Position numbers and translations under genes: made by a program. Below the pieces are notes generated by a model. It made no database searches. It was not told where the DNA came from and saw nothing but the letters and a program-made list of their open reading frames with translations. 64,000 bases of DNA, from contig CAZOUV010000004.1 of the NCBI GenBank assembly GCA_964583105.1, forward strand, positions 2,996 to 66,995, given 5' to 3'. Source of the DNA: an uncultured Gammaproteobacteria bacterium (GTDB lineage: Bacteria; Patescibacteriota; Microgenomatia; UBA8517). The first letter of the stretch is position 1; the number at the start of each line of letters is the position of its first letter. Shown here piece by piece: positions 15,294-34,605 of this stretch.

Positions 15294-15298
15294 AGTAG

Positions 15299-15484: not shown

Positions 15485-15490
15485 AAATTT

Positions 15491-15856: not shown

Positions 15857-15857
15857 A

Positions 15858-16495: not shown

Positions 16496-16579
16496 ATTTT
16501 CTTAGTGTTATTATTAGTTAGTTATTTTTGCCTCCTAGCTTAAAAGTTCAGTTCGCAGGAAAACTAGGAGGCAATAAAA

Positions 16580-19536: not shown

Positions 19537-19547
19537 GTAAATCTTTC

Positions 19548-19805: not shown

Positions 19806-19999
19806 CTTTTATTTGTTCCATAAACTCCTTAATTTTCATTTGTTTGACACGATCAAACATCCTTTCGATTGCATCTGGCAATAAATCGGCGACCTTCTGA
19901 AAATCTGAGTTTGATTTCATGCTCCAATTGTCTTACCCAATGTGGGGAGCTGTAAAGATACCTAATGGGGATAAGACCTATCTGAAATGGGGACTTCCA

Positions 20000-20776: not shown

Positions 20777-20892
20777 ATTCCATTTAAATACCCGTTTATC
20801 ACGGGCATTTTATACCTGTATTTTACCACTAATGATTTCAAATTTCTTAGATTTTTCCGATAAAGTGGAGTAAAATCGGCTTACTAGCTCAA

Positions 20893-21213
20893 ATGGAAGA
20901 CGAAAACAACGATTCGATTAAGGCAATTCTCTGGATCGCAGGAATTATATTTTTTGTGTGGCTTATTTTCTCTTCTGACAACAGTTCTAAACCCGAACGA
21001 ATAACTGAAGATTTTGAAAATGGTAATTCAATTGATATGGAGGTTGACCGTTCAATAACAAGCGATAATTGGGAATGTACAAGTAATTGCTCTGGGCATG
21101 ATGCAGGTTATGAATGGGCAGAAGAAAACGGAATTACTGATGCAAGTGATTGTGGCGGAAAATCAGAGTCCTTTATTGAGGGTTGTGAAGCTTACGCTAA
21201 CGAGAATTATTAA
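20893..21213 (+). CDS. membrane-anchored small Cys-rich protein
   Basis: N-terminal TM helix (ILWIAGIIFFVWLIF) then a Cys-rich ectodomain (CTSNCSGHDAGYEWAEENGITDASDCGG...GCEAY). Confidence 0.4.
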   Translation: MEDENNDSIKAILWIAGIIFFVWLIFSSDNSSKPERITEDFENGNSIDMEVDRSITSDNWECTSNCSGHDAGYEWAEENGITDASDCGGKSESFIEGCEAYANENY

Positions 21214-21216
21214 AGA

Positions 21217-21453
21217 TTATCTCCACCAGTTAATTGTACCCGTTCTTCCTGTATATGGGTTGTAGTTTCCTTTTGAACTATAATTATCAAACTTATATCT
21301 ATTTGGGCTAGTTCTATAATAGGAATTAACGTAAGTTCCACTCCTTGTGGTATATCCTCTTACACGAATAGTCCTTGCTTCAATAAATGAGGTTGATGCT
21401 GTAAGTAAAGTTATAGCTATTGCCAAAGAAAGAAGAAATTTCTTTATCATCAA
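21217..21453 (-). CDS. secreted Tyr/Arg-rich small protein
   Basis: Signal peptide (MMIKKFLLSLAIAITLLTASTSFIEA) then Y/R/T/N-rich repeats. Confidence 0.4.
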   Translation of the reverse strand: MMIKKFLLSLAIAITLLTASTSFIEARTIRVRGYTTRSGTYVNSYYRTSPNRYKFDNYSSKGNYNPYTGRTGTINWWR

Positions 21454-21544
21454 TTAAGTATAACAGCTCCTGTCAATAATTTCTTAGATTTTTCTGGAAA
21501 AAGGGTGTAAAATTTGGCTAGTAAGTTGTTTATAAATATGTAAT

Positions 21545-21847
21545 ATGAATATTAAATGGCCTTCAATTATTTCTGGGGTCCTTCTGCTCTTAGGAATATT
21601 GAATATTTGGCCATACGACTATTACACAATCCTCAGATGGGTTGTTTGCGGAGTAGCCATTTTCAACGCAATTGGGTTCTCAAAATCACAATTAACAGGT
21701 TGGGTGCTCGTTTTTGTAGCTTTAGCTTTTCTCTTTAATCCCCTTTTCCCTGTTTACTTAAATAAAAGTTCGTGGGTGGGAATAGATCTAATCTCAGCAT
21801 TTGTTTTCTTTTTATCCGCTTATTCAATTAGACAAAAAGCGAAATGA
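21545..21847 (+). CDS. small integral membrane protein (3 predicted TM helices)
   Basis: 100 aa, almost entirely hydrophobic helices. Confidence 0.4.
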   Translation: MNIKWPSIISGVLLLLGILNIWPYDYYTILRWVVCGVAIFNAIGFSKSQLTGWVLVFVALAFLFNPLFPVYLNKSSWVGIDLISAFVFFLSAYSIRQKAK

Positions 21848-23223
21848 AAAAGTTGTTTCTATTATTGCTTGAGATAAGCTTGTCATCGCTCTGGATTCTC
21901 AATTTTTTTGCAGGAATAGTTGGTGCAATTTGGCTGCTAGCTACTGGTGGATGGGGTTTGGTAGTAATCGGCTTGTTGTATAGCTTCCTAATGCCCTGGG
22001 TTTACACTGTTGCCTCGCTACCCACATGGTTGATCGTGCCGCTAGTCGTAAAATCCGCTGAAAAGGGAAAAAGACTTACGACCGCAATATTAGGCTTTAT
22101 TCTTTCGGGATATAACAATTTTATTTTATCTATTTGGGTTATCACTATATTTGTATGGGTAGTTTCAAACACACAGTATCCAATAATTGCTGTTTTACTT
22201 TGGGGGTATTCAGTTGTAATGGGGCCCGTAGGATATATGGCAGCGAAGGAAGGCCCTGAAGCAGGAACTGGCACAACATTAGGGGTTCTTTTTACACAAA
22301 TCGCCTATTTGGTTCTAGTTGTTAATTTACTATTCGGGAACTCTACTCTTGATGGAGACATTTGGTTATGGATTCTTATATTTCTCTTCACATTATTTAC
22401 ATCCTGGATGGGTTACATGTCTGTTTCAGGTAATACACAAGAAAAACTTGGTGAACTCATTCCAATAGAACCCGAGTTAGATTCAAATAAAACTGAAGAT
22501 GCTGTCCCACTTTCTGATGAAGATATTGTTTCAGAGAAAGCCAATCTCGATTCTTCAGCTTACGATTTGATAGATATACTGGATAGGGATCTTATCGACG
22601 GTAAATTTAAAGAAGCTATTGTTATTTGTAACAAGATACTTAAGAAGGACCCCAAGAACATTCATGCGACATTTAATTTAGGCTTTTGTTATCAAAGACT
22701 GAAGCAACACAAAAAAGCCATAGGCTATTTTAACAAAACATTAAAGCTAGATGAAAACCATTTAATAGCCATGTCAAACAAAGCCATATCTCTCGGAGAA
22801 TTGGGAGAACTTAAAGACGCTAATTTACTATATAAAAGCCTGCTCAAACGGGCTATTTCAAATGGCAATAAGTCGGTTGCGATGTTTGCCAGCTATAACC
22901 TTAATAATTTTGGACAAAGTCTAGATTTGGCTGATGATTTGTTATCCGAAAACTCAGACGATCTAGACGCCTTATTTTATAAGTCCTTAGCACTGAAAGA
23001 TTTGCAACGATACAAAGAATCAATGACAACAGCCTACCACTTGCTAACCCTACAACCAGAAAACATTTTTGCTATGGGTTTAATTGGAGATATTTACTAT
23101 CAAATCAAGAAATATCAAGAGTCTATAGATATATTTAATGAATTGCTAAAAATAAACCCGAATGATCCTAACGCCACGAGAGGTATAAAGCAAGCAGAAC
23201 TGGAATTATTAAAAACAAATTAA
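21844..23223 (+). CDS. polytopic membrane protein with C-terminal TPR repeats
   Basis: N-terminal ~200 aa with ~6 hydrophobic helices. C-terminal ~230 aa with TPR-like 34-residue repeats (e.g. ...FNLGFCYQRLKQHKKAIGYFNKTLKLDENH...). Confidence 0.5.
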   Translation: MKKLFLLLLEISLSSLWILNFFAGIVGAIWLLATGGWGLVVIGLLYSFLMPWVYTVASLPTWLIVPLVVKSAEKGKRLTTAILGFILSGYNNFILSIWVITIFVWVVSNTQYPIIAVLLWGYSVVMGPVGYMAAKEGPEAGTGTTLGVLFTQIAYLVLVVNLLFGNSTLDGDIWLWILIFLFTLFTSWMGYMSVSGNTQEKLGELIPIEPELDSNKTEDAVPLSDEDIVSEKANLDSSAYDLIDILDRDLIDGKFKEAIVICNKILKKDPKNIHATFNLGFCYQRLKQHKKAIGYFNKTLKLDENHLIAMSNKAISLGELGELKDANLLYKSLLKRAISNGNKSVAMFASYNLNNFGQSLDLADDLLSENSDDLDALFYKSLALKDLQRYKESMTTAYHLLTLQPENIFAMGLIGDIYYQIKKYQESIDIFNELLKINPNDPNATRGIKQAELELLKTN

Positions 23224-23231
23224 GGATTTTT

Positions 23232-23477
23232 ATGAAACTTAAATCAATGCTCTCAATTCTGGTTAGCTTAATAATTCTTTACTTTGTGATTAGTTTTTCT
23301 TGGAGTTTGTTAAATACACAGACTTGCAGTGTTGGTGATTTGCCAAAAAATGCAACTTGCCAACAAATTGCCGAAAATAATTCAAAATATTGCAAGTATG
23401 TAATACTAAAATGGAAGAAGGTTGACTACAATGCAGAACTAAAAAAATGTCAGCAGTGGGAAGCAAACAACAAATGA
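23232..23477 (+). CDS. secreted/membrane small Cys-containing protein
   Basis: 81 aa with an N-terminal hydrophobic segment and 4 Cys. Confidence 0.3.
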   Translation: MKLKSMLSILVSLIILYFVISFSWSLLNTQTCSVGDLPKNATCQQIAENNSKYCKYVILKWKKVDYNAELKKCQQWEANNK

Positions 23478-23959
23478 ACAATAAAAACATTTTAGTGGTA
23501 ATTGGGATAGTGATCATATTGATGTTAGGATATTTAATTTTCCAAGATGATATTTCTTGGTATTCAAAAAGAAATGAGATATTAAAAAAAGCTAATATAT
23601 ATAACATCCCCGATGTTGCAGTTAAATGTTACGACTTCATTACAGACAAAAGTGATGATCCCGTGCCAAGTCAAGACTGCACTAATGAATATAATAAATG
23701 GTTACCAAAAACAGAGGAGTGGAAAAATCTTATTAAAACAAAGAAAGATATTAACTGTGGAGACTTTTACGACCCAAAAGATGCAAAATATTTTTACCAT
23801 TATATAAGTGGAGAACTATCTAGTGATTTTTATAAATACAACACCACACCTTCTCCAAAAAGTTTTTCCTGGAGGTCATCGGGAGACTTACATTGTACAT
23901 ATGATTCCTACGGCCTAGATACTAATCACGATTGCAATGCCTGTGAGAACTATCAGTAA
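23447..23959 (+). CDS. membrane-anchored Cys-rich protein
   Basis: N-terminal TM helix (ILVVIGIVIILMLGYLIF), then a 140-aa domain with 8 Cys and Tyr/Asp-rich stretches. Confidence 0.4.
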   Translation: MSAVGSKQQMNNKNILVVIGIVIILMLGYLIFQDDISWYSKRNEILKKANIYNIPDVAVKCYDFITDKSDDPVPSQDCTNEYNKWLPKTEEWKNLIKTKKDINCGDFYDPKDAKYFYHYISGELSSDFYKYNTTPSPKSFSWRSSGDLHCTYDSYGLDTNHDCNACENYQ

Positions 23960-24019
23960 ACAGATAAACAATTTTGCAAAGACGCATATTAGTTTAATAG
24001 CTAAGAAAAAGAAAAGTAT

Positions 24020-24697
24020 ATGATTTTAATTAAAAACACATCACTAATTGAGTACGATGATTTACTTGAGAAAGCTATAAAAATCTGCGTCCAATATGAC
24101 GCAGTTTCTCCAAGTCTGTTTCAAAGGAGATTGGAAGTGGGTTATGCTCGTGCGTCTCGATTAATTGATCAGTTAGAATTTGCAGGAATATTAGAATCAT
24201 CAAGGGGCAATAATTTACCTAGAAAGGTTCTTACATTTAAGAATAACAAGACGACCAAAAAGTCACCATTTTTTAAAGAAGGATCGGAAGGGTATCTAAT
24301 GAGTTGCGCACAACTAATTAAATATACTCTTGAAGCTCATGGTATTTGGGTAAGGGTTAACTCAATTGAAATTACATCGCAAAACATATGCTTTTATATG
24401 GAAGTTGCTCTTGGAACAATAATTAATAAGATTTTGAAATTAAAGAAGGAACTAGCTCTATCTCTTGCCTCACCTACCGGAAATATAATTATTGCAGCCC
24501 CATTTAAAGGAACTTCTTTAGTAGCTCTATACTTGCCTACTAAAAATAATTTAAGAAAAGCAAGCTATCGTGTTATTAATGAAGAATTTGTAATAAAACC
24601 TCCACAATACCCATATTTATATGCAATAAAAACCTTTTTCCAAAGATTCTTCTTACGAATATCAAATTATTTTTACGATCTTGCATATAAGATATAG
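24020..24697 (+). CDS. orphan FtsK-like protein: FtsK gamma (winged-helix) domain followed by an FtsK alpha-like domain, no ATPase
   Basis: Residues ~25-70 VSPSLFQRRLEVGYARASRLIDQLEFAGILESSRGNNLPRKVL match the FtsK/SpoIIIE gamma-domain consensus (SLLQRRLRIGYNRAARLIDQLE..GIV...GSKPREVL). The C-terminal LEAHGIWVRVNSIEI...FYMEVALGT...LAL.LA...IIAAPFKGTSLVALYLP resembles the FtsK alpha domain. Confidence 0.5.
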   Translation: MILIKNTSLIEYDDLLEKAIKICVQYDAVSPSLFQRRLEVGYARASRLIDQLEFAGILESSRGNNLPRKVLTFKNNKTTKKSPFFKEGSEGYLMSCAQLIKYTLEAHGIWVRVNSIEITSQNICFYMEVALGTIINKILKLKKELALSLASPTGNIIIAAPFKGTSLVALYLPTKNNLRKASYRVINEEFVIKPPQYPYLYAIKTFFQRFFLRISNYFYDLAYKI

Positions 24698-24905
24698 CTT
24701 TAAAAGTGTCCATGATTTCTCCTAAACTTATTCAAGAGTTTAAACAAATATATAAAGAAGAAATGAATGAAGACTTAACTGATCAAGAAGCATTTGAATC
24801 GGCACAAAATCTTCTTAACTTCTTTGAGTTGCTAATTAAAATTGATTTAAGAAACAGGATAAAATAGTATACTGGTTGTGCGAGGTTCATAACTCTGGAT
24901 ATAAC

Positions 24906-25334
24906 TTATTGACTTATTACCTTTCCTTCTATTGGGTCAATTGTTAGTTCGTATGTTGGTAAATACCCTGCGTGATCATGTTGATTATTCGAAATAACCA
25001 CAAGCATTTTTTCATCTTTCTGCCCCTTTTTTACTGTTGCCGATATAAAACTTGAATTTGCCGTTCCTTGTTCAAACATTTTTGGATATTCGTTTCTTGA
25101 GATGCTGAAAGAAGAAAATGGAACAGTTACATTTTCAAAAGGTTCAATATAAATTTCATCATTTAGAACAAGAATATCCAAGATACCTTGGTTCGTGTCA
25201 AGTGAAATCAAGGTATCTAATTGGGTATTCGAAATTAGGTTGGTATCTATGGCGAAATGTGATTTAGCTACACCAAAGCCCAACAAAGCTCCTATAAACA
25301 GTATTAATATTCCGAAGATAACTTTTTTCAGCAT
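24906..25334 (-). CDS. membrane-anchored extracytoplasmic protein
   Basis: N-terminal TM/signal anchor (VIFGILILFIGALLGFGVA), 142 aa. Confidence 0.35.
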   Translation of the reverse strand: MLKKVIFGILILFIGALLGFGVAKSHFAIDTNLISNTQLDTLISLDTNQGILDILVLNDEIYIEPFENVTVPFSSFSISRNEYPKMFEQGTANSSFISATVKKGQKDEKMLVVISNNQHDHAGYLPTYELTIDPIEGKVISQ

Positions 25335-25383
25335 AATGTTATTTTACACCTAAAATTGATAGTGGATTGCAATGGTGGGAGCA

Positions 25384-26112
25384 CTATTTATTTAAAGGGT
25401 AGCTCAATGTCACTAAATTGTGATCACAGGCATGACAGTTATCGTCAGCGTAAAAAATAAGATCAATATTATTTGTTACACTACTGTAAGACGCTCCCTG
25501 GGAAAGAATTGATTTTGTTGTTTCATTGCTGTTTAATTTATTGCAAATATTAATATCTTGTTCGATTGAGCTCATATAAACGTTTATTTTAGGATTATCT
25601 GCAACATTGCCATCGTAAAAATTAGTTAATAAAAAGCCATTTTTTGTATCGTATTTAATATAAATAGGATAACTTCCCCAATAATTTGCTCCTATTTTGG
25701 TAAGTGAAATAAAAATACCTGATAAATCTGATGTGTAATTATCCCCTACTAATATTGGTATAACATCCATACTAAAATAAAATCCTTCAGAGTCTGGAAT
25801 ATCTGGAACAAAACTGTAAACTTTTTTATATAAATTACCTACATCTTTATAAATATCAAGGCGAGGTAATGTAAGATGATCACCATCTAAAACAACGATT
25901 GTAACATTTGAATATATCCCATTCTTTTCAGCGACCTCAAAGGTTTTTGTATAACTAATCTTTAGGTTTGTACCTGTATCAATAATCAATTGTTTTGTTT
26001 TTGAAAATTGAATTTTTTCTAGGACGAAGTGAAAAACCAAATAACCAAACATAATCAAGGCGATTATTATTAAAAATAATATGAATTTTCTTTTTATAAT
26101 GGTCTTAAACAC
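25384..26112 (-). CDS. membrane-anchored extracytoplasmic protein
   Basis: N-terminal TM helix (FILFLIIIALIMFGYLVFHFV); 242 aa, Tyr/Asn-rich, C-terminal CHACDHN. Confidence 0.4.
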   Translation of the reverse strand: MFKTIIKRKFILFLIIIALIMFGYLVFHFVLEKIQFSKTKQLIIDTGTNLKISYTKTFEVAEKNGIYSNVTIVVLDGDHLTLPRLDIYKDVGNLYKKVYSFVPDIPDSEGFYFSMDVIPILVGDNYTSDLSGIFISLTKIGANYWGSYPIYIKYDTKNGFLLTNFYDGNVADNPKINVYMSSIEQDINICNKLNSNETTKSILSQGASYSSVTNNIDLIFYADDNCHACDHNLVTLSYPLNK

Positions 26113-26218
26113 CTTTACAATTAAATTGATTATACACCGAACATTTTTCTAAGGTGCCTATAATGAGTTATTTTCTTTCTTGTTGTATGGTGAGTTGAAG
26201 TGAGGGTATAATGAACGC

Positions 26219-26458
26219 ATGAATGATAGACAGGCGCAAAAAGTAGGATTTTGGAAATGGATGTCTTCTAAAAAATTAGGTATTATTTTATTTTGGATTT
26301 TCGTCTTAATAACATCCACACTTAACCAGACAGACGTATTTTCAACAAATCCTTTAAGTTTAATAATAAATGCAATGTATGGAACATTGGGTTATATTAT
26401 TTTTATTCTCCTGACATTCACAGCATGGTTTTATTTGGTAACGAATAGACGACCCTAA
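26219..26458 (+). CDS. small membrane protein (2 TM)
   Basis: 79 aa with two hydrophobic helices. Confidence 0.3.
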   Translation: MNDRQAQKVGFWKWMSSKKLGIILFWIFVLITSTLNQTDVFSTNPLSLIINAMYGTLGYIIFILLTFTAWFYLVTNRRP

Positions 26459-26577
26459 GGTCGAAAGAGTCGTTTAAATACCCCACCTTCTTACTTTCGT
26501 TTTGTTTATTGTATGCCATTCTGTGGCAATTTCTACAAGCCAAAATAGTAGAATTTGGTGGAAAATATAATAGGCAT

Positions 26578-27123
26578 CTACACTTCTAACACTTTTCTCA
26601 AATCATCCTGAGTGAAGTGATAATAGAGAGACGTCGACGAAAGGGACGTATGGCCTACAAACTTCTGAACTTGTGGCAAGGGTACCCCCTTGTCCAGTTT
26701 AGTTGTAATCCAATGGTGCCTAAAGGTATGAGGCCGAATGTTTTTATTAATTCCCGATGCTTTTACTCTTCTTTTTAAGGCTAAATAGGCTGATAACCTA
26801 CTCATGGCGTTATCATCTCTACCTCTGAAGATATAGCCCTCTCTACGGCCTCCTATGAGCTTACGGAGGCTTCCGGTCATGTTATCGGTAATAGGAATAA
26901 TCCGATCTTGGTGGTTCTTGGTATTTCTTAGAGTAAGAAATCTTTGTGCTGGATCAAAATCTTGAATCTTTAAGCTGGTTATTTCGCTAATTCTTGCTCC
27001 TGAATCCCAAAGCAGTTGGATAATTGTATTCATAATAAACTTCTGAGATGGGTAGCAATTAATGGGAGCATTCAGAATTTTTTGGAGGTCTACTTCTGTC
27101 AAAAAAGGTTGAGACTTTAGCAT
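26578..27123 (-). CDS. minimal tyrosine recombinase (catalytic domain only, 181 aa; no N-terminal core-binding domain)
   Basis: Complete catalytic set in order: R (DSGARISEI), K (RNTKNHQDRIIPI), H-x-x-R-H (HTFRHHWIT), Y (GHTSLSSTSLYYH). The upstream coding space is occupied by the terminator and 3' end of the next gene, so it is either truncated or naturally minimal. Confidence 0.7.
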   Translation of the reverse strand: MLKSQPFLTEVDLQKILNAPINCYPSQKFIMNTIIQLLWDSGARISEITSLKIQDFDPAQRFLTLRNTKNHQDRIIPITDNMTGSLRKLIGGRREGYIFRGRDDNAMSRLSAYLALKRRVKASGINKNIRPHTFRHHWITTKLDKGVPLPQVQKFVGHTSLSSTSLYYHFTQDDLRKVLEV

Positions 27124-27230
27124 TTTTAGTAACCTATAACTGTTAAAAAATTAGTTTTGAAGCTAATCTATATTAACATTATATCTATAAAGTATATATT
27201 AGGCTACCAGTACTTTAATGTCAATAAGTT

Positions 27231-27272
27231 ATAAAAAAAACAAAAAAGCAGGGGTTGCTTTCACTCCCCTGC
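27231..27272 (-). terminator. rho-independent terminator for the 27325..28557 gene
   Basis: On the minus strand: GCAGGGGAGUGAAAGCAACCCCUGC hairpin followed by UUUUUUGUUUUUUUU. Confidence 0.6.
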
Positions 27273-27324
27273 TAATTTATTTTCGTAACAATCTATCCTT
27301 TTTATTAAGACAAATGTTTTCTAG

Positions 27325-28557: not shown

Positions 28558-28930
28558 TCCCCCTAAAACTGATAATAATTTTTTAATTTTAATTCACCTC
28601 CCCCTAACACCTTTCTTTAAGCACTTTATGGTGTAAGTGCGAAAGCAAAAAAATAGACCACCAATGACGGCGGTCAATCAACTAACCAACTCAATAAACA
28701 ATCAGTGAAATTCACTACCCCATATTGTTCTAATTAAATCAATTTGTCAAGAAAATTTCTAACCGATTAATTGGGATATATTAATCTCACTGATTCTACA
28801 AAACATCATATTTTTAATAATAAATTCTGAATAAGATAGATACAAAAAGGGAGCCATTTCTGACTCCCTCCTTGCTTTTTATTGCTCTCGCAAAACCCTT
28901 TTTGGGGATTTTGTGAAGCAATACATTATA

Positions 28931-28979
28931 ACAATAGTTTACTAACCCTGTAAAATAGCTTCAGGTGATATAATAAGCC
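28931..28979 (+). repeat. duplicated leader/promoter-like element (copy 1) containing motif TAGTTTACTAACCCTG and an extended -10 TGaTATAAT
   Basis: acaaTAGTTTACTAACCCTGTAAAATAGCTTCAGgTGaTATAATaagccg immediately precedes the GTG start of 28980..29468. It is ~90% identical to 29471..29529. Confidence 0.5.
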
Positions 28980-29468
28980 GTGTCGGAAAAAACAGATAAT
29001 CTACTTACAGAGGGACTGATTGAAGGTTATGCAGGTGTTAAAAAACCAGTGAGAATTCAAAGGTCAGAATTTCTTGGAAAGGCAAATGACTTTGTGGGTT
29101 CGGATGGGGGTCACTATCATGACGAATGGTTTGCTGATGATAACGGTGGTGGACAGGAATTAGTAAAAGAAGGAGAGGAACAATTTACCAGATTATATGG
29201 TGGTGGTGTAATTCCTGTTGAGGAACTTCAAAAACTTGGTTTAAACACTAAAGACGTAATCTCTCGTTTAATAACAAGCGTGAGGCAACTTAAGGAAAAA
29301 ACTAGGTTACATGAACCATGTGCTTTAGAACTTCCAGGCGGTTGGAGTTATAAATATGAAATTATCAAAAAGAGTAAGGAAGTTCCACTGACTGTTGGTT
29401 ATGAGTCAATTGAACTTAACGGCAGAGAACTTTTTGCCCACGCCCATATACTTTCACCCGTAAAATAG
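28980..29468 (+). CDS. hypothetical protein (GTG start)
   Basis: 162 aa, acidic and Gly-rich (DGGHYHDEWFADDNGGGQ). Confidence 0.35.
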   Translation: MSEKTDNLLTEGLIEGYAGVKKPVRIQRSEFLGKANDFVGSDGGHYHDEWFADDNGGGQELVKEGEEQFTRLYGGGVIPVEELQKLGLNTKDVISRLITSVRQLKEKTRLHEPCALELPGGWSYKYEIIKKSKEVPLTVGYESIELNGRELFAHAHILSPVK

Positions 29469-29470
29469 AA

Positions 29471-29529
29471 GTTCCGTACATAGTTTACTAACCCTGTAAA
29501 ATAGCTTCAGATGCTATATAATCCGCTCC
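29471..29529 (+). repeat. duplicated leader/promoter-like element (copy 2)
   Basis: aGTTCCgtACATAGTTTACTAACCCTGTAAAATAGCTTCAGaTGcTATATAATccg precedes 29530..29817. Its 5' part is also related to the 29818 and 30738 elements. Confidence 0.5.
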
Positions 29530-29817
29530 ATGACTGAAAAAGCTGTCGTTGTAACCATTAAGCCCGAAGATATGCATTGTTCAAATTGTTTTTATGGTCA
29601 CCAAATTGTAGCTGGCATGGGCGGAGGCAATATCGAAGATGACGGAACAAAAACCAGTTGGGTGCTATTAAGAAGAATTCCTGTCGGCCAAACAAGAAAT
29701 TGTTTTGGATTGGTTGAAAAAGTTTTATCTCAACTAGATTTCATCAAACTCAATCATTTTATTTATCCGAACGAGGATGACACATGCATCAACCCCAAAA
29801 AATTTATGGCGAAGTAG
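29530..29817 (+). CDS. hypothetical small protein with CxxC and Gly-rich loop
   Basis: 95 aa: HCSNCFYGHQIVAGMGGGN... Confidence 0.35.
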   Translation: MTEKAVVVTIKPEDMHCSNCFYGHQIVAGMGGGNIEDDGTKTSWVLLRRIPVGQTRNCFGLVEKVLSQLDFIKLNHFIYPNEDDTCINPKKFMAK

Positions 29818-29970
29818 TTCCTGACATATTTCACTAGCCCCTGCCTATACATAGTTAAATTGATAGTTATAGTCAGTCATTAGAAGACTCTTTAACATCT
29901 GATAATCAGTGGAATTAAGATCAAAATTAGTTCGAACATCGTTCACTAGCTCACCCTGGGTTTTTAGCCT
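29818..29970 (+). repeat. array repeat copy 1, long form (secondary element 29818-29889 + 81-bp core 29890-29970)
   Basis: Core cTTTAAcATCTGATAATCAGTgGAATTAaGATCAAAATtAGTTCGAACATCGTTCACTAGCTCACCCTGgGTTTTTaGCCT. It is preceded by TTCCTGACATATTTCACTAGCCCCTGCCTATACATAGTTA, which recurs at 30738. Confidence 0.85.
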
Positions 29971-29984
29971 TAAGAAAGTTCTCT

Positions 29985-30296
29985 ATGTGGTTGCAACTAA
30001 GTTTTGGATTGATATTCTCTTCCTCTTTTATTATAATCGCTTCCATGACTGAATCACCCAATTTCCCTTGGTGCAAGGGATGTCCCCTACCTGAGATTTT
30101 GGGAAAAATTACTCAAGCCAGAAATGGAGTACTTGCTGCCAATGCTAATATTCGTCTTTCAGAATCACCCACACAAGCTCATCCTTACCGGATAGAAGCA
30201 CTGTGGAGAATGAAAAAATTCCGAAATGAAAGGGCTAGGCTTGATGAATTCAAAATAAGTTTGGGTGATAATTGTCCTTCTTGCACTCTTCTATAA
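29985..30296 (+). CDS. hypothetical small membrane-anchored Cys-containing protein (cassette)
   Basis: 103 aa. N-terminal hydrophobic helix; CKGCPLP...CPSC. Starts 15 bp after repeat copy 1. Confidence 0.35.
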   Translation: MWLQLSFGLIFSSSFIIIASMTESPNFPWCKGCPLPEILGKITQARNGVLAANANIRLSESPTQAHPYRIEALWRMKKFRNERARLDEFKISLGDNCPSCTLL

Positions 30297-30401
30297 GTAT
30301 ATACAAACCACTCGGACAGTTTATTAAAATAATTAAGCGTAAAAAGTTCGAATACTTTCCATCTAAAGCTGCAAAATAGATTCAAAAAAAACAAGACTGA
30401 A

Positions 30402-30725
30402 TTATTTACTGTTTTCCTCTATTTCTTTCCTAATATCTAAAATATCCTTCGTACTTTTTATAACAGCTTGCGTTAGGTTTTTGGGTAAATGGTGTTGATG
30501 TTTCTTTGGGTCTTTTCTCCCGCCAAGCATATCCCCCAATTCACCCAAAAACTGCGAATGCATAGCAATACACCCGGCCATATCATTTTGCTGGTTCTTT
30601 GTCCCTTTTTTGAGAGAAGCCTCTAAATTCTTCCTTTTAAATTTGTCGGCGAAAGGGTATTTTTTATCTTCCATTATTTGTACCATTATACTCCAAAGAT
30701 ATTGAAATTCTCCACCTATCCCCAC
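30402..30725 (-). CDS. hypothetical protein (cassette)
   Basis: 107 aa, basic/His-rich (KKHQHHLPK). Convergent with 29985..30296. Confidence 0.35.
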   Translation of the reverse strand: MGIGGEFQYLWSIMVQIMEDKKYPFADKFKRKNLEASLKKGTKNQQNDMAGCIAMHSQFLGELGDMLGGRKDPKKHQHHLPKNLTQAVIKSTKDILDIRKEIEENSK

Positions 30726-30737
30726 ACAGCAAAGAAG

Positions 30738-30894
30738 TTCCTGACATAGTTTACTCGTCCCTGCCTATACATAGTTATATTTATGGTTCTATTCAGTTGA
30801 TAAAAGTAAGGACTTTAATATCTGATAATCTGTCGAATTAGGTACAAAATGAGTTCGAACATCGTTCACTAGCTCACCCTGAGATTTTGAGGCT
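30738..30894 (+). repeat. array repeat copy 2, long form (secondary element 30738-30812 + core 30813-30894)
   Basis: TTCCTGACATAGTTTACTCGTCCCTGCCTATACATAGTTA...cTTTAATATCTGATAATCtGTCGAATTAGGtaCAAAATGAGTTCGAACATCGTTCACTAGCTCACCCTGAGaTTTTGAGGCT. Confidence 0.85.
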
Positions 30895-30927
30895 ATGAGC
30901 TCGCCTACAATGACTTTATCGGAACTT

Positions 30928-31794
30928 CTAAGCTAATAGTGATAAAGAAATTATCCCAACCAAAGTTACAACCATGCCTAGTATTTGTTGTTTGGTTAAC
31001 CGGTCTTTGAAAACAAAGTAAGCCAATAAGGCAAACAGGGCCGGATAAGAGCTGGCAATCGGAGCAATAATTGAACTCTGGCCTTTTGTGACCGCCAAAT
31101 TGAAAGAGAAAAGAGCCATGATGGAGACTAATGAGTTGAGAATTACAAAGATAATGTGTTTTTTGTCTTTGGGAACAGAGATTTTAATTGACTTTTTTCG
31201 TAAGTATAAAAGAACAATCGGAAAACCCCACCAGGAAATATATGCTGGCCAAAACCAACCGACTTGCTTAATTGGAATTTTAACAAAAGTAAAATAAATC
31301 CCCCAAGCTACCAGCGATATTAATGCAAAAGGCAAACCTTTATCGCTCAATAGTTGATGAACATTAATATTTTTTAGGTTGATTGAAGACAGAATTAGCC
31401 CAACCAAAACAATCACAATACAAAATACCTGAGACATATTTAGGCTTTCTCCCAAAAACAAAACGGAAAGAATAGAAACCAAAGCGCCAAATGAACCAGC
31501 GACAGTACCAACTAAAGAGGCATTTCCCCGACTGATACCTTCATATAAAGTTACTAAAGGAATAATACCAATAGGTAGTAAAGCAATCAGCCAAAGACTT
31601 GTTCCTAAAGTCATATTTCTCAGTTCTGGCCATGCAAAAGGGATATAAAGCGAAGCAAAAACAATACAAAAAACATAGTTTAAAACTGCAGAAGAATAGC
31701 CATTAGTTTTGCGGGCAACTAGACCACCAAAAATATCGCCAACCCCCCAACCGATAAAGGCAATGAGAGCAAATATGATAGCTTGCATCTGCAT
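30928..31794 (-). CDS. DMT-superfamily (EamA-like) transporter (cassette)
   Basis: 288 aa, ~10 TM helices, two EamA-like halves. Stop codon 34 bp from repeat copy 2. Confidence 0.6.
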   Translation of the reverse strand: MQMQAIIFALIAFIGWGVGDIFGGLVARKTNGYSSAVLNYVFCIVFASLYIPFAWPELRNMTLGTSLWLIALLPIGIIPLVTLYEGISRGNASLVGTVAGSFGALVSILSVLFLGESLNMSQVFCIVIVLVGLILSSINLKNINVHQLLSDKGLPFALISLVAWGIYFTFVKIPIKQVGWFWPAYISWWGFPIVLLYLRKKSIKISVPKDKKHIIFVILNSLVSIMALFSFNLAVTKGQSSIIAPIASSYPALFALLAYFVFKDRLTKQQILGMVVTLVGIISLSLLA

Positions 31795-31949
31795 CTAGTA
31801 TATCAAAATTTTATATGGAGTAGTTTTTAGGACAGTATTAGAACCTGAGCTCGCTTTTAAGGATTCGAACTGTCAACTATGGATAATTGCGTGTTAGTAG
31901 GTGACATAGGGAATGGGGTAAGTATTGTTAATTGCCAAAAACCAAAAGG

Positions 31950-32034
31950 CTTTTTAATATCTGATAATCAGTCGAATTAGAATCAAAATTAGTTCGAACA
32001 TCGTTCACTAGCTCACCCTGAGTTTTTGAGGCCT
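31950..32034 (+). repeat. array repeat copy 3 (core)
   Basis: CTTTTTAATATCTGATAATCAGTCGAATTAGaATCAAAATtAGTTCGAACATCGTTCACTAGCTCACCCTGAGTTTTTGAGGCCT. Confidence 0.85.
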
Positions 32035-32068
32035 AATATTTATAGAGGAGATATTGTATAGAAACTAA

Positions 32069-32251
32069 CTAATTAGGTGTAAACTTTTCTTCATGAGACA
32101 CCCAACGATATATTTTTGTTTTCTGCCCTGTCTTAGGATCTGTTAATGTTTCCTCACCTGGAACTTTTGCTGGGGTAAACCAACCCTTCCCTTTTTCTAC
32201 CCAACCACCAAACATGCTATCGCTAGTTGTTTCTGCAACTATATCTTTCAT
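32069..32251 (-). CDS. hypothetical small protein (cassette)
   Basis: 60 aa. Stop 35 bp from repeat copy 3; start ~75 bp from copy 4. Confidence 0.3.
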   Translation of the reverse strand: MKDIVAETTSDSMFGGWVEKGKGWFTPAKVPGEETLTDPKTGQKTKIYRWVSHEEKFTPN

Positions 32252-32325
32252 AAATTATCTGGATACTATATCTAATATTTATTATTGTCAATATAATCTG
32301 TAACAGGTTTTGTTATTAGTAAAGT

Positions 32326-32406
32326 CTTTAATATCTGATAATTGGTAGAATTAGGCACAAAATGAGTTCGAACATCGTTCACTAGCTCACCCTGAGATTT
32401 TAGCCT
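32326..32406 (+). repeat. array repeat copy 4 (core), followed by a TAGTTTACTAGCCCTTG motif at 32424-32440
   Basis: CTTTAATATCTGATAATtgGTaGAATTAGGcaCAAAATGAGTTCGAACATCGTTCACTAGCTCACCCTGAGaTTTTaGCCT. Confidence 0.85.
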
Positions 32407-32464
32407 CCAAGAATTTCTTTATATAGTTTACTAGCCCTTGCTAATTTTTATTATTTCCGAACTG

Positions 32465-33064
32465 CTAATTTACGAAACTCATTCTTGAAGATATGGTTAG
32501 CATCCAGCCGGGCTCTTCACCTTGAATTTCCCAACGTTTTTGTAAATGATCCCAAGTCATAACTCGAACCCCCACCCCGTACGGGGTTTCGTTTTCACCG
32601 ATAATCAGGGGATCCATAAGCCACATAAACTTCTTGCCGTCAGCTACTTTATCTATTTTATAAATTACTGAATAGTGCCCATGTTTTTTACTATTACCGG
32701 GAGTTGGATTTTTTATTAACCACAAAAAATCATGACCATAGTCATAATTCGGTGCCTGATACTCAACCAAGCAAAAATTACCTTCAGATAAAGCGTTTTC
32801 CATATCTTTCATATTAGCCTGTTCGTATTCCTTAATCTTTATATTATGTTTATTAAATACCTCGCTAATTTTGGATGTATCAGCAGTTCCCTGCTTATTG
32901 GTACCTAGTTGAAGATACAATTCATCATAAGACGTTTCAACTCCGAGGGTAGACAAAATGGAGAATACTGATGCAGGGCAACAATCTTCTTGTCTAATTT
33001 GAGTTTTAGGTATTATTTTTCCTGGTCCAATTGATTCTTCCGGTTCTAGCCTTACCCTTTCCAT
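32465..33064 (-). CDS. stand-alone C39-like (papain-fold, bacteriocin-processing-type) cysteine peptidase domain protein (cassette)
   Basis: Cys motif QEDCCPASVFSILSTLG, His motif HGHYSVIYKID, and a downstream WLMDP (Asp). These match the C39 order and spacing (Q..C-G/P-A...HY-VV...DP). There is no ABC-transporter domain. Confidence 0.55.
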   Translation of the reverse strand: MERVRLEPEESIGPGKIIPKTQIRQEDCCPASVFSILSTLGVETSYDELYLQLGTNKQGTADTSKISEVFNKHNIKIKEYEQANMKDMENALSEGNFCLVEYQAPNYDYGHDFLWLIKNPTPGNSKKHGHYSVIYKIDKVADGKKFMWLMDPLIIGENETPYGVGVRVMTWDHLQKRWEIQGEEPGWMLTISSRMSFVN

Positions 33065-33179
33065 ATAGTTAGAATTATATCAGCTTAATATTAAAGCAAA
33101 ATAAGTTTATGGCACAGTTTATGAAACCTGTTTATATATAGCTAGGATGATGATTACAGTTAGTTATTAGAAGTAGGGT

Positions 33180-33260
33180 CTTCAATATCTGATAATCAGT
33201 TGAATTAGGATCAAAATGAGTTCGAACATCGTTCACTAGCCCACCCTGTGTTTTTGGCCT
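33180..33260 (+). repeat. array repeat copy 5 (core)
   Basis: CTTcAATATCTGATAATCAGTtGAATTAGGATCAAAATGAGTTCGAACATCGTTCACTAGCcCACCCTGtGTTTTTGGCCT. Confidence 0.85.
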
Positions 33261-33271
33261 CAAATTTTTTT

Positions 33272-34456
33272 CTAAAGTATAGATCCTGCCCATGCGTAGT
33301 TAGAAAACTTTGGAGATTGATGTCTGCCAACTAGTTTAAGATTCGGAATTTGAGTGTCTGTGGCTATACGAGTTAGGTGTGCCAAATCTCCCTCAAGTGG
33401 AGTTTCTTTGGCTTCAATAGCTAAATTTTCATTTAAAATGAAGTCTATTTCATGTCCAGTTTTAAGAGCGAAATATTGGATTTGACCAACTCTTGAAAGC
33501 TGGTTAAATAGAGTGTTTTCAAATTGAGCTCCACTAGAAAGTTCTGCTAAAGTATTGGCAAGACCCGTATCACAAAAGTAAAGTTTTCTGGACTTTACTA
33601 CTTCTCTGTCAACACTTTTTGTAAAGACAGGAATAGTGCTTATTAAGTAAGTTTTTTCAAAAAAAGAAATATAGTTGGTTACGGTCGGACGGGATATTCC
33701 AGTGAGTCTTGATAATTTGGAATATTCTACCCTGCTACCTACTCTCCCAGCCAGAAGTTTGGCAAGAGAATACAAGTTCCGCTCATCAGAAAAATCAGCG
33801 AGAGAACGGATATCTATATTTACATACGAAGACATAATATCTGATAAAAGATCACGTTTATCAGACTCCGATTCAGCAAGCACTACTTGAGGGAAGCCAC
33901 CAAAGCGGATATATTCTTCATAATAAGAAGACAGACGGTTAAATTCCGAAACATTGAACGTTCCCTTTTGCCAGTTTGTTTGTGAGAAAGAAATGTTTTT
34001 AAAAGTGAGAAATTCTCCAAAGTCTAATGGAAATAACTCAAAAAGTTTTTTTCGTCCGGATAAAGATTCAGAAAATAGATTCTTAAGGTAATATGAGCTT
34101 GATCCGGTGACAATAAATTTGATTTTATGATGGTCAGACAAATACTTAATTGCACTGGGGCTATCCGGAGCCAGTTGGATTTCATCAAGGGCGATTACCA
34201 TTGGCTTATCAGATTGTAATCCTCGGGCAATAAATGCCTCATTAATGGATTCATAGTTTTTTTCATCAAAAAGCTCACGGTTATCTGGTCTCTGCAAATC
34301 CAGGTAAAGTGAGTTTTTATTAGAAATATTCAAAAGTAACTGTTGAATAAGAGTAGTTTTACCCGTTCTTCTCATGCCTGTGAGTACTGTAACTAACGGA
34401 GTTTGGACGTGAGAAAGAAGTTCTGTATAAATTTTGCGGTTGTAGAACATATGCAA
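33272..34456 (-). CDS. AAA+ ATPase of the DUF4143/archaeal-ATPase type (cassette)
   Basis: Walker A LTGMRRTGKTTL, Walker B VIALDEIQ, and a conserved C-terminal DUF4143-like segment. 394 aa. Stop 12 bp from repeat copy 5. Confidence 0.6.
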   Translation of the reverse strand: MHMFYNRKIYTELLSHVQTPLVTVLTGMRRTGKTTLIQQLLLNISNKNSLYLDLQRPDNRELFDEKNYESINEAFIARGLQSDKPMVIALDEIQLAPDSPSAIKYLSDHHKIKFIVTGSSSYYLKNLFSESLSGRKKLFELFPLDFGEFLTFKNISFSQTNWQKGTFNVSEFNRLSSYYEEYIRFGGFPQVVLAESESDKRDLLSDIMSSYVNIDIRSLADFSDERNLYSLAKLLAGRVGSRVEYSKLSRLTGISRPTVTNYISFFEKTYLISTIPVFTKSVDREVVKSRKLYFCDTGLANTLAELSSGAQFENTLFNQLSRVGQIQYFALKTGHEIDFILNENLAIEAKETPLEGDLAHLTRIATDTQIPNLKLVGRHQSPKFSNYAWAGSIL

Positions 34457-34534
34457 TCGTCACTTTACAGAAAGTGACACTATTTGTCAAGTGTCACTTT
34501 TACGTACGTTGTCTAAGGGGTGTCAACATGAGAG

Positions 34535-34605
34535 CTTTTAATATCTGATTATCAATGGAATTAAGATCAAAATGAGTTCGAAGATCGTTCACTAGCTCAC
34601 CCTGA
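34535..34605 (+). repeat. array repeat copy 6 (distal, 3'-degenerate)
   Basis: CTTTTAATATCTGATtATCAaTgGAATTAaGATCAAAATGAGTTCGAAgATCGTTCACTAGCTCACCCTG, then diverges (no GAGTTTTTGAGGCC). Confidence 0.8.

What the first reader, a model, noticed from the sequence alone, without database searches (positions are those of the whole stretch)
29818..34605. Six direct copies of a conserved ~81-bp repeat punctuate a 4.8-kb array of single-gene cassettes (integron-like, unassigned system)
Seen directly in the sequence. Copies lie at 29890-29970, 30813-30894, 31950-32034, 32326-32406, 33180-33260 and 34535-34605, all in the same orientation and spaced 376-1355 bp apart. The consensus is cTTTAATATCTGATAATCAGTcGAATTAGgATCAAAATGAGTTCGAACATCGTTCACTAGCTCACCCTGaGtTTTTgaGGCCt. 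Copies 1-5 are roughly 85-90% identical by eye. The distal sixth loses its 3' end. I found no copy elsewhere in the 64 kb. Each inter-repeat interval holds one ORF (once a convergent pair) of unrelated function: a DMT transporter, a C39-like peptidase, a DUF4143 ATPase, and 60-107-aa hypotheticals. For the minus-strand genes, the stop codon lies only 12-55 bp from the repeat on one side and the start 70-150 bp from the next repeat. Each unit is therefore 'gene then repeat', like integron cassettes with a 3' attC. The repeat contains three short dyads: TCTGATaATCAG, GAACatcGTTC (within GAGTTCGAAC) and CTCAcccTGAG. These are candidate recombinase or regulator binding sites. A tyrosine recombinase gene (26578..27123) sits 2.8 kb away and the last repeat is degenerate, as expected at an array end. 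Inference: this is a homogeneous-repeat cassette array comparable to sedentary chromosomal integrons (Vibrio VCR-type), or an undescribed recombination-based cassette system. The geometry is not canonical (no IntI-type integrase, no identified attI, cassettes on both strands).
Basis: partly seen in the sequence, partly recalled or inferred. Interest (0 to 1): 0.85.

Follow-up and report, generated by a model that had tools for sequence, protein, structure and literature searches.

The report
tRNA-anchored single-gene cassette array
In this tiny uncultured bacterium (Woesebacteria), a run of unrelated single genes is separated by repeats that resemble the end of a tRNA gene; related genomes show such genes moving as precise units, so it looks like an integron-like gene-collecting site built on tRNA-type attachment sites.

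Summary
The six direct repeats are real. Over a 69-nt core they are 86-94% identical, and none is expected by chance.

It is not an integron. The sites form no attC-like hairpin, there is no IntI, and the cassettes carry their own promoters on either strand. Each site is a conserved ~21-nt scaffold (AGTTCGAACATCGTTCACTAG-like, resembling a tRNA T-arm) followed by 7-9 nt like a tRNA 3' end.

In relatives, such sites lie downstream of, and co-oriented with, tRNA-His, tRNA-Trp or tRNA-Asn, and their last bases copy that tRNA's end (clearly for Trp and Asn, weakly for His). One cassette gene of the window has a 99.8%-identical 613-nt copy at two positions in two tRNA-Asn arrays, cut exactly at the tRNA-like ends.

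The array lies in a 21.8-kb island downstream of tRNA-His. A newer element carrying a serine recombinase separates it from the tRNA. The nearby 181-aa tyrosine recombinase belongs to that element.

Best reading: serial site-specific integration of recombinase-less cassettes, with the recombinase unidentified. This is a new variant of tRNA-anchored islands.

The parts
13672..13747 (+). tRNA-His(GTG), the presumed anchor of the island. The cassette sites are co-oriented with it and lie downstream.
   Evidence: ARAGORN and Rfam. Relatives L017/L018 have tRNA-His directly followed by the C39-like gene that sits at 35604 in the window, so 13.75-35.6 kb is an insertion.
13738..27300 (-). Integrative element carrying a large serine recombinase, inserted between tRNA-His and the cassette array. 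Recombinase: 14124-15293 plus a C-terminal piece at 13738-14136 that overlaps the tRNA end. Also a CHC2 primase (18904-19536), further replication-like genes, and the 181-aa tyrosine recombinase (26578-27123). The right-hand boundary is approximate.
   Evidence: Pfam Resolvase/Recombinase/Zn_ribbon_recom and Zn_ribbon_DnaG. NCBIfam. The same gene order, tyrosine recombinase ... primase ... serine recombinase next to the target, is seen in L041 (inside comM) and L044 (at tRNA-Pro).
28921..28975 (+). Site A0: only the 3' half of an A-type site (ATAGTTTACTAACCCTG) plus a TGnTATAAT promoter. This is the left end of the array.
   Evidence: Homology to the L033 cassette starts exactly at 28934.
28980..29468 (+). 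Cassette gene p162: a conserved 162-aa protein of unknown function, mobile in other genomes.
   Evidence: 228 homologues, up to 88% identical. Found in different arrays flanked by att-like sites.
29467..29520 (+). Site A1 (overlaps the TAG stop of p162) plus a promoter.
29530..29817 (+). Cassette gene p95 (hypothetical).
29813..29844 (+). Site A2 (overlaps the TAG stop of p95).
29890..29970 (+). B repeat copy 1.
29985..30725 (.). Cassette with a convergent pair. One ORF runs 29985-30296 (+); its likely true start is 30047, behind a TTGATA-N17-TATAAT promoter. The other is p107, 30402-30725 (-).
   Evidence: family D15 repeats the promoter/start motif TATAATC..CCATGACTGAA.
30733..30764 (+). Site A3.
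30813..30894 (+). B repeat copy 2.
30928..31794 (-). Cassette gene: EamA/DMT transporter.
   Evidence: Pfam PF00892.
31950..32034 (+). B repeat copy 3.
32069..32251 (-). Cassette gene p60, with its own TTGACA-N17-TAGTAT promoter at 32291-32263.
32326..32406 (+). B repeat copy 4.
32410..32441 (+). Site A4, 3 nt after B4.
32465..33064 (-). Cassette gene: C39-like peptidase.
   Evidence: Pfam PF03412.
33180..33260 (+). B repeat copy 5, preceded by a degenerate A-like stretch at about 33100-33140. Its terminal segment is GCCCACCC.
33272..34456 (-). Cassette gene: AAA_14/DUF4143 ATPase, with its own TTGACA-N17-TAAAGT promoter at 34490-34462.
34535..34605 (+). B repeat copy 6, the right end of the array. 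It keeps the left arm and core and diverges after CACCCTG.

Best explanation
The region is a tRNA-anchored array of mobile cassettes that carry no recombinase. Most cassettes hold one gene with its own promoter.

Each repeat is an attachment (att) site. It consists of a conserved ~21-nt scaffold (AGTTCGAACATCGTTCACTAG in the 81-nt 'B' repeats, AGTTCCTGACATAGTTTACTAG in the shorter 'A' sites) that resembles a tRNA T-arm. This is followed by 7-9 nt that mimic the 3' acceptor end of a tRNA: GCTCACCC/GCCCACCC, His-like, in B; GCCCCTGC(A), Trp-like, in A.

Inferred mechanism: a circular cassette carrying one such site recombines with the 3' end of the tRNA gene, or with a resident site. This leaves a site on each side. 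Repeated events stack cassettes in one orientation downstream of the tRNA, and later arrivals push older ones outward. Here the latest arrival is a 13.5-kb element with a serine recombinase. Recombination between direct sites can excise cassettes again.

The internal B copies look like complete cassette sites (left arm + core + right arm AGTTTTTGAGGCC). The last copy has the cassette's left arm joined to chromosomal sequence.

Shown: the anatomy of the sites, their tRNA association in relatives, and cassette mobility with exact boundaries at tRNA-like ends. Inferred: that a site-specific recombinase acting in trans does this. Its identity is unknown.
For: 1. Eleven co-oriented sites lie in 5.7 kb and none elsewhere in 64 kb.

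2. All sites face the same way although genes lie on either strand, and in L006 and L013 the genes are co-oriented with the site. This points to a DNA-level, direction-dependent role rather than an RNA or promoter role.

3. Sites in relatives lie downstream of tRNA-His. L001, L005, L006, L007 and L008 carry the same core downstream of, and co-oriented with, tRNA-His; L001, L007 and L008 also show the window's tRNA order Arg-Leu-Pro-Gly-His. L008 has a single copy after one gene. L001 and L006 share only the tRNA and the 116-nt repeat unit (99%), with different genes between them.

4. L017/L018 have no island: tRNA-His abuts the C39-like gene.

5. In L033, at least 6 A-type sites follow tRNA-Trp. 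They repeat its last 9 nt, GCCCCTGCA, plus about 15 nt of its downstream flank.

6. In L028 and L037, partial tRNA-Asn 3' ends follow successive single genes.

7. The p162 cassette is 99.8% identical over 613 nt in L037 and L038. It starts in the last 5 nt of tRNA-Asn in L037 but lies 2 kb downstream of tRNA-Asn in L038. It ends 29 nt after the stop codon, in a tRNA-like end.

8. L031 and L028 are identical from 7 nt before the tRNA-Asn 3' end and unrelated upstream.

9. The window's p162 unit matches L033 over 589 nt, bounded by A sites.

10. The B repeat is 81-87% identical between the window and L008, although the flanking substrate-binding protein is only 54% identical in amino acids. This implies selection or recent transfer.
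Against: - No recombinase could be tied to the sites. None was called within 7 kb of the arrays in L027-L040. The window's tyrosine recombinase occurs elsewhere without such sites.
- The similarity of the B core to the tRNA-His 3' end is weak (local alignment p of about 0.03-0.5 against shuffles). It rests on GAGTTCGA plus (C/T)CACCC.
- No mobile copy of any B-flanked cassette of the window was found; mobility was shown for the A/Asn-type p162 cassette only.
- In L047, A-type sites occur after ftsZ with no tRNA in 8.4 kb.
- A sites carry a promoter, so part of their conservation may be regulatory.
- The array lies 15 kb from tRNA-His, and A (Trp-like) and B (His-like) sites are intermixed. That needs a more complex history.
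Confidence: 0.6

Rival explanations
1. The repeats are portable regulatory or insulator modules (promoter, operator or terminator). They spread with local gene duplication and are kept by selection on expression. They are not recombination sites.
For: A-type units contain a TGnTATAAT promoter that reads into the next gene. B ends with a weak hairpin plus a T-run on the + strand. Every site lies just downstream of a stop codon of some gene.
Against: B sites face away from, or converge on, the genes they adjoin, and those genes have their own promoters. The hairpin and T-run are absent from copy 6 and from L008 and L006. Neither strand folds better than shuffles. A regulatory role does not explain cassette boundaries falling exactly at tRNA-like ends, or the same cassette at different array positions.
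Confidence: 0.12
2. Cassettes are exchanged by ordinary homologous recombination, with the 30-165-nt repeats acting as homology anchors after DNA uptake. No dedicated site-specific recombinase is involved.
For: No recombinase is linked to the arrays. The repeats are long enough (69-165 nt at about 90% identity) for inefficient RecA-dependent exchange.
Against: For Asn-type sites the shared sequence is only about 20-30 nt, and the boundary falls within the last 5-7 nt of the tRNA. That is typical of site-specific crossover. The invariant 21-nt scaffold across cassettes and genomes suggests protein recognition. Strict co-orientation with the tRNA in five independent locus families also fits better with att sites.
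Confidence: 0.15
3. It is a true (sedentary) integron or a CALIN, with the repeats as attC sites.
For: The array-like layout of small, unrelated, mostly single-gene units with a homogeneous repeat. The stop codon often overlaps the start of a site.
Against: There is no attC-like hairpin (z-scores -2.1 to +0.2, minimum free energies -5.6 to -10.1 kcal/mol). The only tyrosine recombinase is a 181-aa protein with a catalytic domain alone. It scores 79 bits against a 265-bit cut-off for integron integrase and belongs to another element. Cassettes have promoters and lie on both strands.
Confidence: 0.02
4. The repeat is a chromosome dimer-resolution (dif-like) site at the replication terminus, and the cassettes are elements that exploit the host Xer recombinase (IMEX or dif modules).
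For: Gene orientation and GC skew switch within 13-36 kb, as at a terminus. L008 has a single copy where genes converge. A Xer-like recombinase and an FtsK gamma-domain fragment lie in the island.
Against: The motif is absent from the syntenic region of closer relatives L016-L021. A-type sites lie at other loci, after tRNA-Trp and after ftsZ. There are no two-arm dyads around a 6-8-bp centre. Only 2 of 185,579 species genomes hold the 20-mer.
Confidence: 0.04
5. The repeat is a small non-autonomous dispersed element (MITE- or REP-like).
For: It is a short, conserved, non-coding repeat between genes.
Against: There are no terminal inverted repeats and no target duplications. All copies share one orientation in one 5.7-kb cluster and none lies elsewhere in 64 kb. 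In metagenomes the repeat is tied to the flank of tRNA-His.
Confidence: 0.03

Closest known systems
tRNA-anchored genomic islands built by tandem integration (Islander-type tDNA islands; Prochlorococcus tycheposon islands, bioRxiv 10.1101/2020.12.28.424599)
   Same: The island lies downstream of a tRNA gene. Partial tRNA 3'-end copies, co-oriented with the tRNA, separate successive insertions. New arrivals push older ones outward. An element with a serine recombinase and a primase sits next to the tRNA.
   Different: The units here are single genes of 0.4-1.4 kb with no integrase and no replication module. Site density is integron-like (11 sites in 5.7 kb). The sites are not plain tRNA fragments: they have a conserved scaffold with a TCACTAG box and 5-6 extra nt relative to the tRNA.
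Cis-mobilizable elements (CIMEs) and tandem islands at the tmRNA gene ssrA in Dehalococcoides (PMC3146451)
   Same: DNA segments bounded by att sites but lacking their own recombination genes, accumulated in tandem at one tRNA- or tmRNA-type target site. This comparison rests on general knowledge and the paper's abstract; the paper itself was not read.
   Different: CIMEs are decayed ICEs or IMEs of several kb, and the ssrA islands carry their own serine recombinases. Here the units are minimal promoter-gene cassettes that recur intact in different arrays.
Integrons and CALINs
   Same: Functionally similar: an array of small, unrelated, individually mobile gene cassettes, each bounded by a recombination site, presumably mobilised in trans.
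   Different: No IntI, no attI/Pc, and no folded attC. Cassettes carry their own promoters and lie on either strand. The sites resemble tRNA 3' ends.
Large serine integrase attP/attB pairs (PMC3783163)
   Same: In the cassette sites the shared motif GAGTTCGA lies 5-6 bp further from the terminal identity segment than it does in the tRNA. This matches the 5-bp outward shift of the zinc-ribbon-domain motif in attP relative to attB. A large serine recombinase abuts tRNA-His in the window and tRNA-Pro in L044.
   Different: Serine integrases recombine only attP with attB, which does not readily produce arrays whose internal sites look like complete attP. No dyad symmetry around a central dinucleotide was found. 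This is a lead only.

Membership tests
Integron / CALIN | attC sites: an imperfect bulged hairpin (R''-L''/L'-R') formed by single-stranded DNA | tested here: not met
   ssDNA folds of three copies on both strands gave minimum free energies of -5.6 to -10.1 kcal/mol and z-scores of -2.1 to +0.2 against shuffles, with no end-to-end pairing. The attC covariance model itself was not available.
Integron / CALIN | IntI-type integrase next to the array (needed for an integron, not for a CALIN) | tested here: not met
   The only tyrosine recombinase (26578-27123) is 181 aa with a catalytic domain alone. Its best matches are XerA/XerD. It scores 79 bits on integron integrase TIGR02249 against a 265-bit cut-off. 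It belongs to another element.
Integron / CALIN | Mostly promoterless cassettes, co-oriented and expressed from Pc | tested here: not met
   Genes lie on both strands. Sigma-70-like or extended -10 promoters precede individual genes.
tDNA-anchored island formed by tandem site-specific integration | Direct repeats that copy the 3' end of the anchoring tRNA, downstream of it and co-oriented with it | tested here: inconclusive
   Met clearly in the relatives: tRNA-Trp in L033 (9 nt plus about 15 nt of flank) and tRNA-Asn in L028, L037 and L038. For the window's B sites versus tRNA-His, only GAGTTCGA and (C/T)CACCC match, with alignment p of about 0.03-0.5. Orientation and the position downstream of tRNA-His are met.
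tDNA-anchored island formed by tandem site-specific integration | Variable content between conserved flanks in related genomes | tested here: met
   L017/L018 have no island. L008 has one gene plus one site. L001 and L006 hold different genes between the same tRNA and repeat. The window has a 21.8-kb island.
tDNA-anchored island formed by tandem site-specific integration | An integrase that recognises the sites | not testable with these tools
   A large serine recombinase abuts tRNA-His, but nothing links it to the A or B sites. No recombinase was called within 7 kb of the arrays in L027-L040.
Cis-mobilizable element (CIME)-like cassette | A segment bounded by att sites, without recombination or transfer genes, that moves as a unit | tested here: met
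   The p162 cassette of 613 nt is 99.8% identical at two array positions, with ends at tRNA-like sites. This was shown for one cassette type only.
dif / Xer-exploiting element (IMEX) | A single 28-30-bp site with two recombinase-binding arms at the terminus, conserved in relatives | tested here: not met
   Absent from the syntenic region in L016-L021. No canonical dif-like match above chance. A sites occur at other loci.
MITE / REP-type dispersed repeat | Terminal inverted repeats or a palindromic unit, with many dispersed copies in both orientations | tested here: not met
   No inverted repeats at the ends and one orientation only. Only the 64-kb window could be checked for dispersion.
Known RNA families (Rfam 15) | A match to a covariance model | tested here: not met
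   Nothing in the repeats reached even E<=10.

The most novel reading that the evidence does not exclude
Patescibacteria of the Microgenomates group, and possibly other phyla, have a dedicated gene-capture system analogous to integrons. The possible wider reach rests on Acidobacteriaceae contigs and other higher-GC contigs (about 48-56% GC where measured) that carry AAGTTCGAAAATCGTTCACTAG followed by a variable 7 nt and CCA after successive genes. In this system, promoter-bearing single-gene cassettes carry a modular site: a conserved recombinase-binding scaffold with a TCACTAG box, plus a short segment that is 'addressed' to the 3' end of a particular tRNA. An unidentified recombinase acting in trans, perhaps a large serine recombinase given the 5-6-bp attP/attB-like offset, inserts and excises them.
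Probability: 0.25. Interest if true: 0.85.

Novelty: new variant of a known kind. Interest (0 to 1): 0.62.

Why it matters
CPR bacteria (Patescibacteria) have very small genomes, and how they acquire genes is poorly understood. This array suggests a compact way of collecting and shuffling single accessory genes at tRNA-type attachment sites, without each unit paying for its own integrase. The genes here include a transporter, a peptidase, an ATPase and a widespread 162-aa protein of unknown function.

If a dedicated recombinase is found, this would be a second, independent solution to the problem that integrons solve. Its modular site, a scaffold plus a tRNA-matching address, could also interest genome engineers. 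In addition, it flags a mobile, highly conserved protein family (p162) worth characterising.

Tried and rejected
- **attC/integron.** Folding both strands showed no hairpin.
- **Known RNAs.** Rfam gave nothing at gathering thresholds or at E<=10.
- **Exact-core scans.** My first pattern ended in C and found nothing in genome or viral collections. The relaxed pattern found only 2 species genomes. Viral hits to a degenerate pattern look like chance matches, some of them inside coding-like sequence.
- **dif site.** The terminus-like position was tempting, but the motif is missing from the syntenic region of closer relatives and there is no canonical dif-like match.
- **LexA box.** The core contains CGAAC-N3-GTTC and GTTC-N7-GTTC. 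However, a canonical GAACATATGTTC box exists at 11492, and the N3 form occurs only in the repeats.
- **Small peptide.** A 15-codon ORF on the minus strand of B (MFELILILIRLIIRY) is kept in L008 but lost in copy 6 and in L006, so I judged it non-coding.
- **tRNA-His 3' end duplicated elsewhere in the window.** None found.
- **Tyrosine recombinase as the array's enzyme.** Its homologues sit in serine-recombinase elements or beside a defence island, with no A or B sites.
- **Other window cassettes in the fetched loci.** tblastn found none apart from p162.
- **Literature.** Searches found no description of the motif or of such arrays in CPR.

Full report
**Observation**

The six direct repeats exist at the stated positions and in one orientation. 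Their 31-nt core, GAGTTCGAACATCGTTCACTAGCTCACCCTG, occurs six times with at most 1 mismatch and nowhere else in the 64 kb. Shuffled sequence gave no matches. Over the 69 nt common to all copies, identity is 86-94%, mean 90%. Copy 6 diverges straight after CACCCTG.

The gene content is as described.

A second, shorter site type ('A', consensus AGAAGTTCCTGACATAGTTTACTAGCCCCTGC) was missed. It occurs five times in the same orientation, at 28934, 29480, 29826, 30746 and 32423, where 0.09 matches are expected by chance. A and B share one scaffold, AGTTC..ACAT.GTT.ACTAG, and differ in the 7-9 nt that follow. The array therefore has 11 sites and 9 genes between 28.9 and 34.6 kb.

The two leftmost + strand genes end with a TAG that overlaps an A site. 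Each is preceded by a TGnTATAAT promoter that is part of the A unit. The minus-strand genes have their own promoter-like sites between gene start and the next repeat.

**What it is not**

- It is not attC-like: neither strand of the repeat folds better than shuffled sequence.
- It matches no Rfam family.
- It has no terminal inverted repeats.
- The tyrosine recombinase at 26578-27123 is a 181-aa protein with a catalytic domain only. It is closest to XerA/XerD and far below the integron-integrase cut-off.
- A LexA-box reading fails, because a canonical GAACATATGTTC box lies elsewhere and the N3 variant occurs only in the repeats.
- A dif reading was attractive because gene orientation and GC skew switch inside 13-36 kb. 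But closer relatives lack the motif in the syntenic region, and no dif-like site stands out.

**Context**

The flanking substrate-binding protein gene identifies the organism as a relative of Candidatus Woesebacteria.

The window carries tRNA genes in the order Arg, Leu, Pro, Gly, His. In relatives L017 and L018, tRNA-His is directly followed by the C39-like gene that lies at 35604 in the window. So 13.75-35.6 kb is a 21.8-kb island inserted downstream of tRNA-His.

The tRNA-proximal 13.5 kb is an integrative element with these parts:
- a large serine recombinase abutting the tRNA;
- a CHC2 primase;
- the 181-aa tyrosine recombinase at the far end.

The same recombinase family, always 181 aa long, lies in comparable serine-recombinase elements in L041 (inserted in comM) and L044 (at tRNA-Pro). 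In L042 it lies beside a defence island. None of these loci has A or B sites.

**The repeat elsewhere**

A metagenome scan with the 20-nt core returned 13 loci. In L001, L005, L006, L007 and L008 the core lies downstream of, and co-oriented with, tRNA-His. L001, L007 and L008 also show the window's tRNA order.

- L008 has one gene and then a single B-type site, which starts at the stop codon.
- L006 has several cassettes and tandem sites.
- L001 and L006 share only the tRNA (94%) and a 116-nt repeat unit (99%). The homology stops 7 nt after the core, right after CCACCC, and different genes lie between.
- The L008 copy is 81-87% identical to the window's copies, although the neighbouring orthologous protein is only 54% identical. 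The site is therefore under constraint or was recently transferred.

Only two species-representative genomes hold the 20-mer: one Gottesmanbacteria and one Acidobacteriaceae. It is therefore not a common dispersed repeat.

**The decisive comparison**

The first cassette gene, p162 (28980-29468), has 228 homologues in Microgenomates, up to 88% identical.

- *L033-L036.* The gene is flanked on both sides by A-type sites. L033 shows the origin of these sites. They follow tRNA-Trp, whose 3' end and flank (...CCGCCCCTGCA|AAATAGGCTCAAAAT) are repeated at the end of at least six co-oriented sites. Genes of either orientation lie between the sites.
- *L027-L032 and L037-L040.* The same gene lies in arrays downstream of tRNA-Asn, where successive single genes are followed by partial tRNA-Asn 3' ends (...GAGTCCAAGACGGGGAGCCA).
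- *L037 versus L038.* They share only the tRNA (95%) and a 613-nt cassette (99.8%). In L037 the cassette starts in the last 5 nt of the tRNA. In L038 it lies 2 kb further down the array. It ends 29 nt after the stop codon, in a tRNA-like end.
- *L031 versus L028.* They are identical from 7 nt before the tRNA 3' end and unrelated upstream.
- *The window versus L033.* The window's p162 unit matches L033 over 589 nt, bounded by A sites, with different neighbours. In L047 the neighbours differ again.

**Interpretation**

The sites behave as attachment sites of tRNA-targeting integration, and the units between them as cassettes that move without carrying a recombinase.

The B repeat reads as a complete cassette site:
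- a left arm of about 60 nt that includes the scaffold;
- a His-like terminal segment. GCTCACCC and GCCCACCC have the form of a tRNA-His acceptor 3' strand plus C73;
- a short right arm, AGTTTTTGAGGCC.

Copy 6 has the left arm joined to unique DNA, as expected at the distal end of an array.

The array's distance from tRNA-His is explained by later insertion of the serine-recombinase element at the tRNA. The same pattern is described for tycheposon islands.

**Weak points**

- The similarity of B to the tRNA-His end is statistically weak.
- Mobility was shown only for the p162 cassette.
- A-type sites can occur without a nearby tRNA (L047).
- A and B sites are intermixed in the window.
- No recombinase is linked to the sites.

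One lead: between GAGTTCGA and the terminal segment, cassette sites are 5 nt (B versus tRNA-His) or 6 nt (A versus tRNA-Trp) longer than the tRNA. This mirrors the 5-bp shift of the zinc-ribbon motif between attP and attB of large serine integrases (PMC3783163). But serine integrases do not readily explain arrays of attP-like sites.

**Wider family**

Contigs of higher GC content carry AAGTTCGAAAATCGTTCACTAG followed by a variable 7 nt and CCA, just after the stop codons of successive genes. They are L002, L004, L009, L013 and the Acidobacteriaceae contig L015; GC is about 48-56% where it was measured. In L015 the site is the left arm of a longer imperfect hairpin. These may be the same site family in other phyla, or a chance 20-mer match. 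I leave this open.

**Verdict**

The integron analogy holds for function but not for membership.

The best-supported reading is a tRNA-anchored array of recombinase-less single-gene cassettes. That is a new variant of tandem tDNA islands (tycheposon-, CIME- or ssrA-island-like) with integron-like density. The recombinase remains unidentified. I found no description of this in the searchable literature.

Noticed in passing
window 13738-15293 (-): The large serine recombinase is split into two overlapping ORFs: 14124-15293 (389 aa) and 13738-14136 (132 aa). Together they make about 521 aa, like the intact 523- and 516-aa homologues in L041 and L044. This points to a frameshift or a sequencing error. 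The C-terminal ORF ends inside the 3' end of tRNA-His.
   Followed up: partly
window 26578-27123 (-); L041-L046: A conserved family of 181-aa tyrosine recombinases with only the catalytic domain, closest to XerA/XerD. All near-full-length homologues at 64-92% identity are exactly 181 aa, apart from a few truncated entries. The gene sits inside serine-recombinase integrative elements or next to a GmrSD/MmeI defence island. Its role is unknown.
   Followed up: partly
window 24020-24697 (+): A stand-alone 225-aa ORF with FtsK gamma and FtsK alpha domains but no motor domain. It lies inside the island, 1.9 kb from the Xer-like mini-recombinase.
   Followed up: no
window about 13000-36000: Gene orientation (+ on the left, - on the right) and GC skew (positive to about 13 kb, negative beyond about 40 kb) switch here, as at a replication terminus. 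The hypervariable island downstream of tRNA-His sits in this switch region.
   Followed up: partly
window 11492-11503: A perfect Gram-positive-type SOS (Cheo) box, GAACATATGTTC, lies 16 nt upstream of ORF 11519-11995. It is the only such box in 64 kb. Relatives encode LexA near this region (L019, L020).
   Followed up: no
window 28640-28900 (-): Two strong terminator-like hairpins lie on the minus strand (28675-28656 and 28875-28842), in a 370-nt gene-free stretch upstream of the 410-aa gene. There are weak sRNA-like Rfam hits (STnc100, E=0.034). No minus-strand gene lies upstream for them to terminate. This might be a small RNA or the remnant of a cassette.
   Followed up: no
window 28980-29468; P0121-P0240: p162 is a 162-aa protein of unknown function with no Pfam match. 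It is unusually conserved (65-88% identity) across Woesebacteria, Gottesmanbacteria and Roizmanbacteria. That is more conserved than the housekeeping substrate-binding protein next to the island, and p162 is carried on a mobile cassette.
   Followed up: partly
B repeats, minus strand (e.g. window 33237-33190); L008: A 15-codon hydrophobic ORF (MFELILILIRLIIRY) with a GGTGA motif upstream lies inside the repeat. Copy 5 and L008 keep it with a TGA stop in place of TAA. Its ATG is lost in copy 6 and it is truncated in L006. It is probably not coding.
   Followed up: partly
L013 (1017 nt), L015 2256-4421, L002, L004, L009: Contigs of higher GC content (including an Acidobacteriaceae MAG) carry AAGTTCGAAAATCGTTCACTAG followed by a variable 7 nt and CCA, directly after the stop codons of successive genes. 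L013 has three small ORFs with 373-444-nt spacing. In L015 the site forms the left arm of a long imperfect hairpin (z -2.8 to -3.3). This may be a related cassette system in other phyla.
   Followed up: partly
L016 (end of a 191-kb contig); many 1-3 kb contigs: Assemblies tend to break at tRNA-His and at these cassette or recombinase loci. Such arrays are therefore probably under-represented in metagenome-assembled genomes.
   Followed up: no
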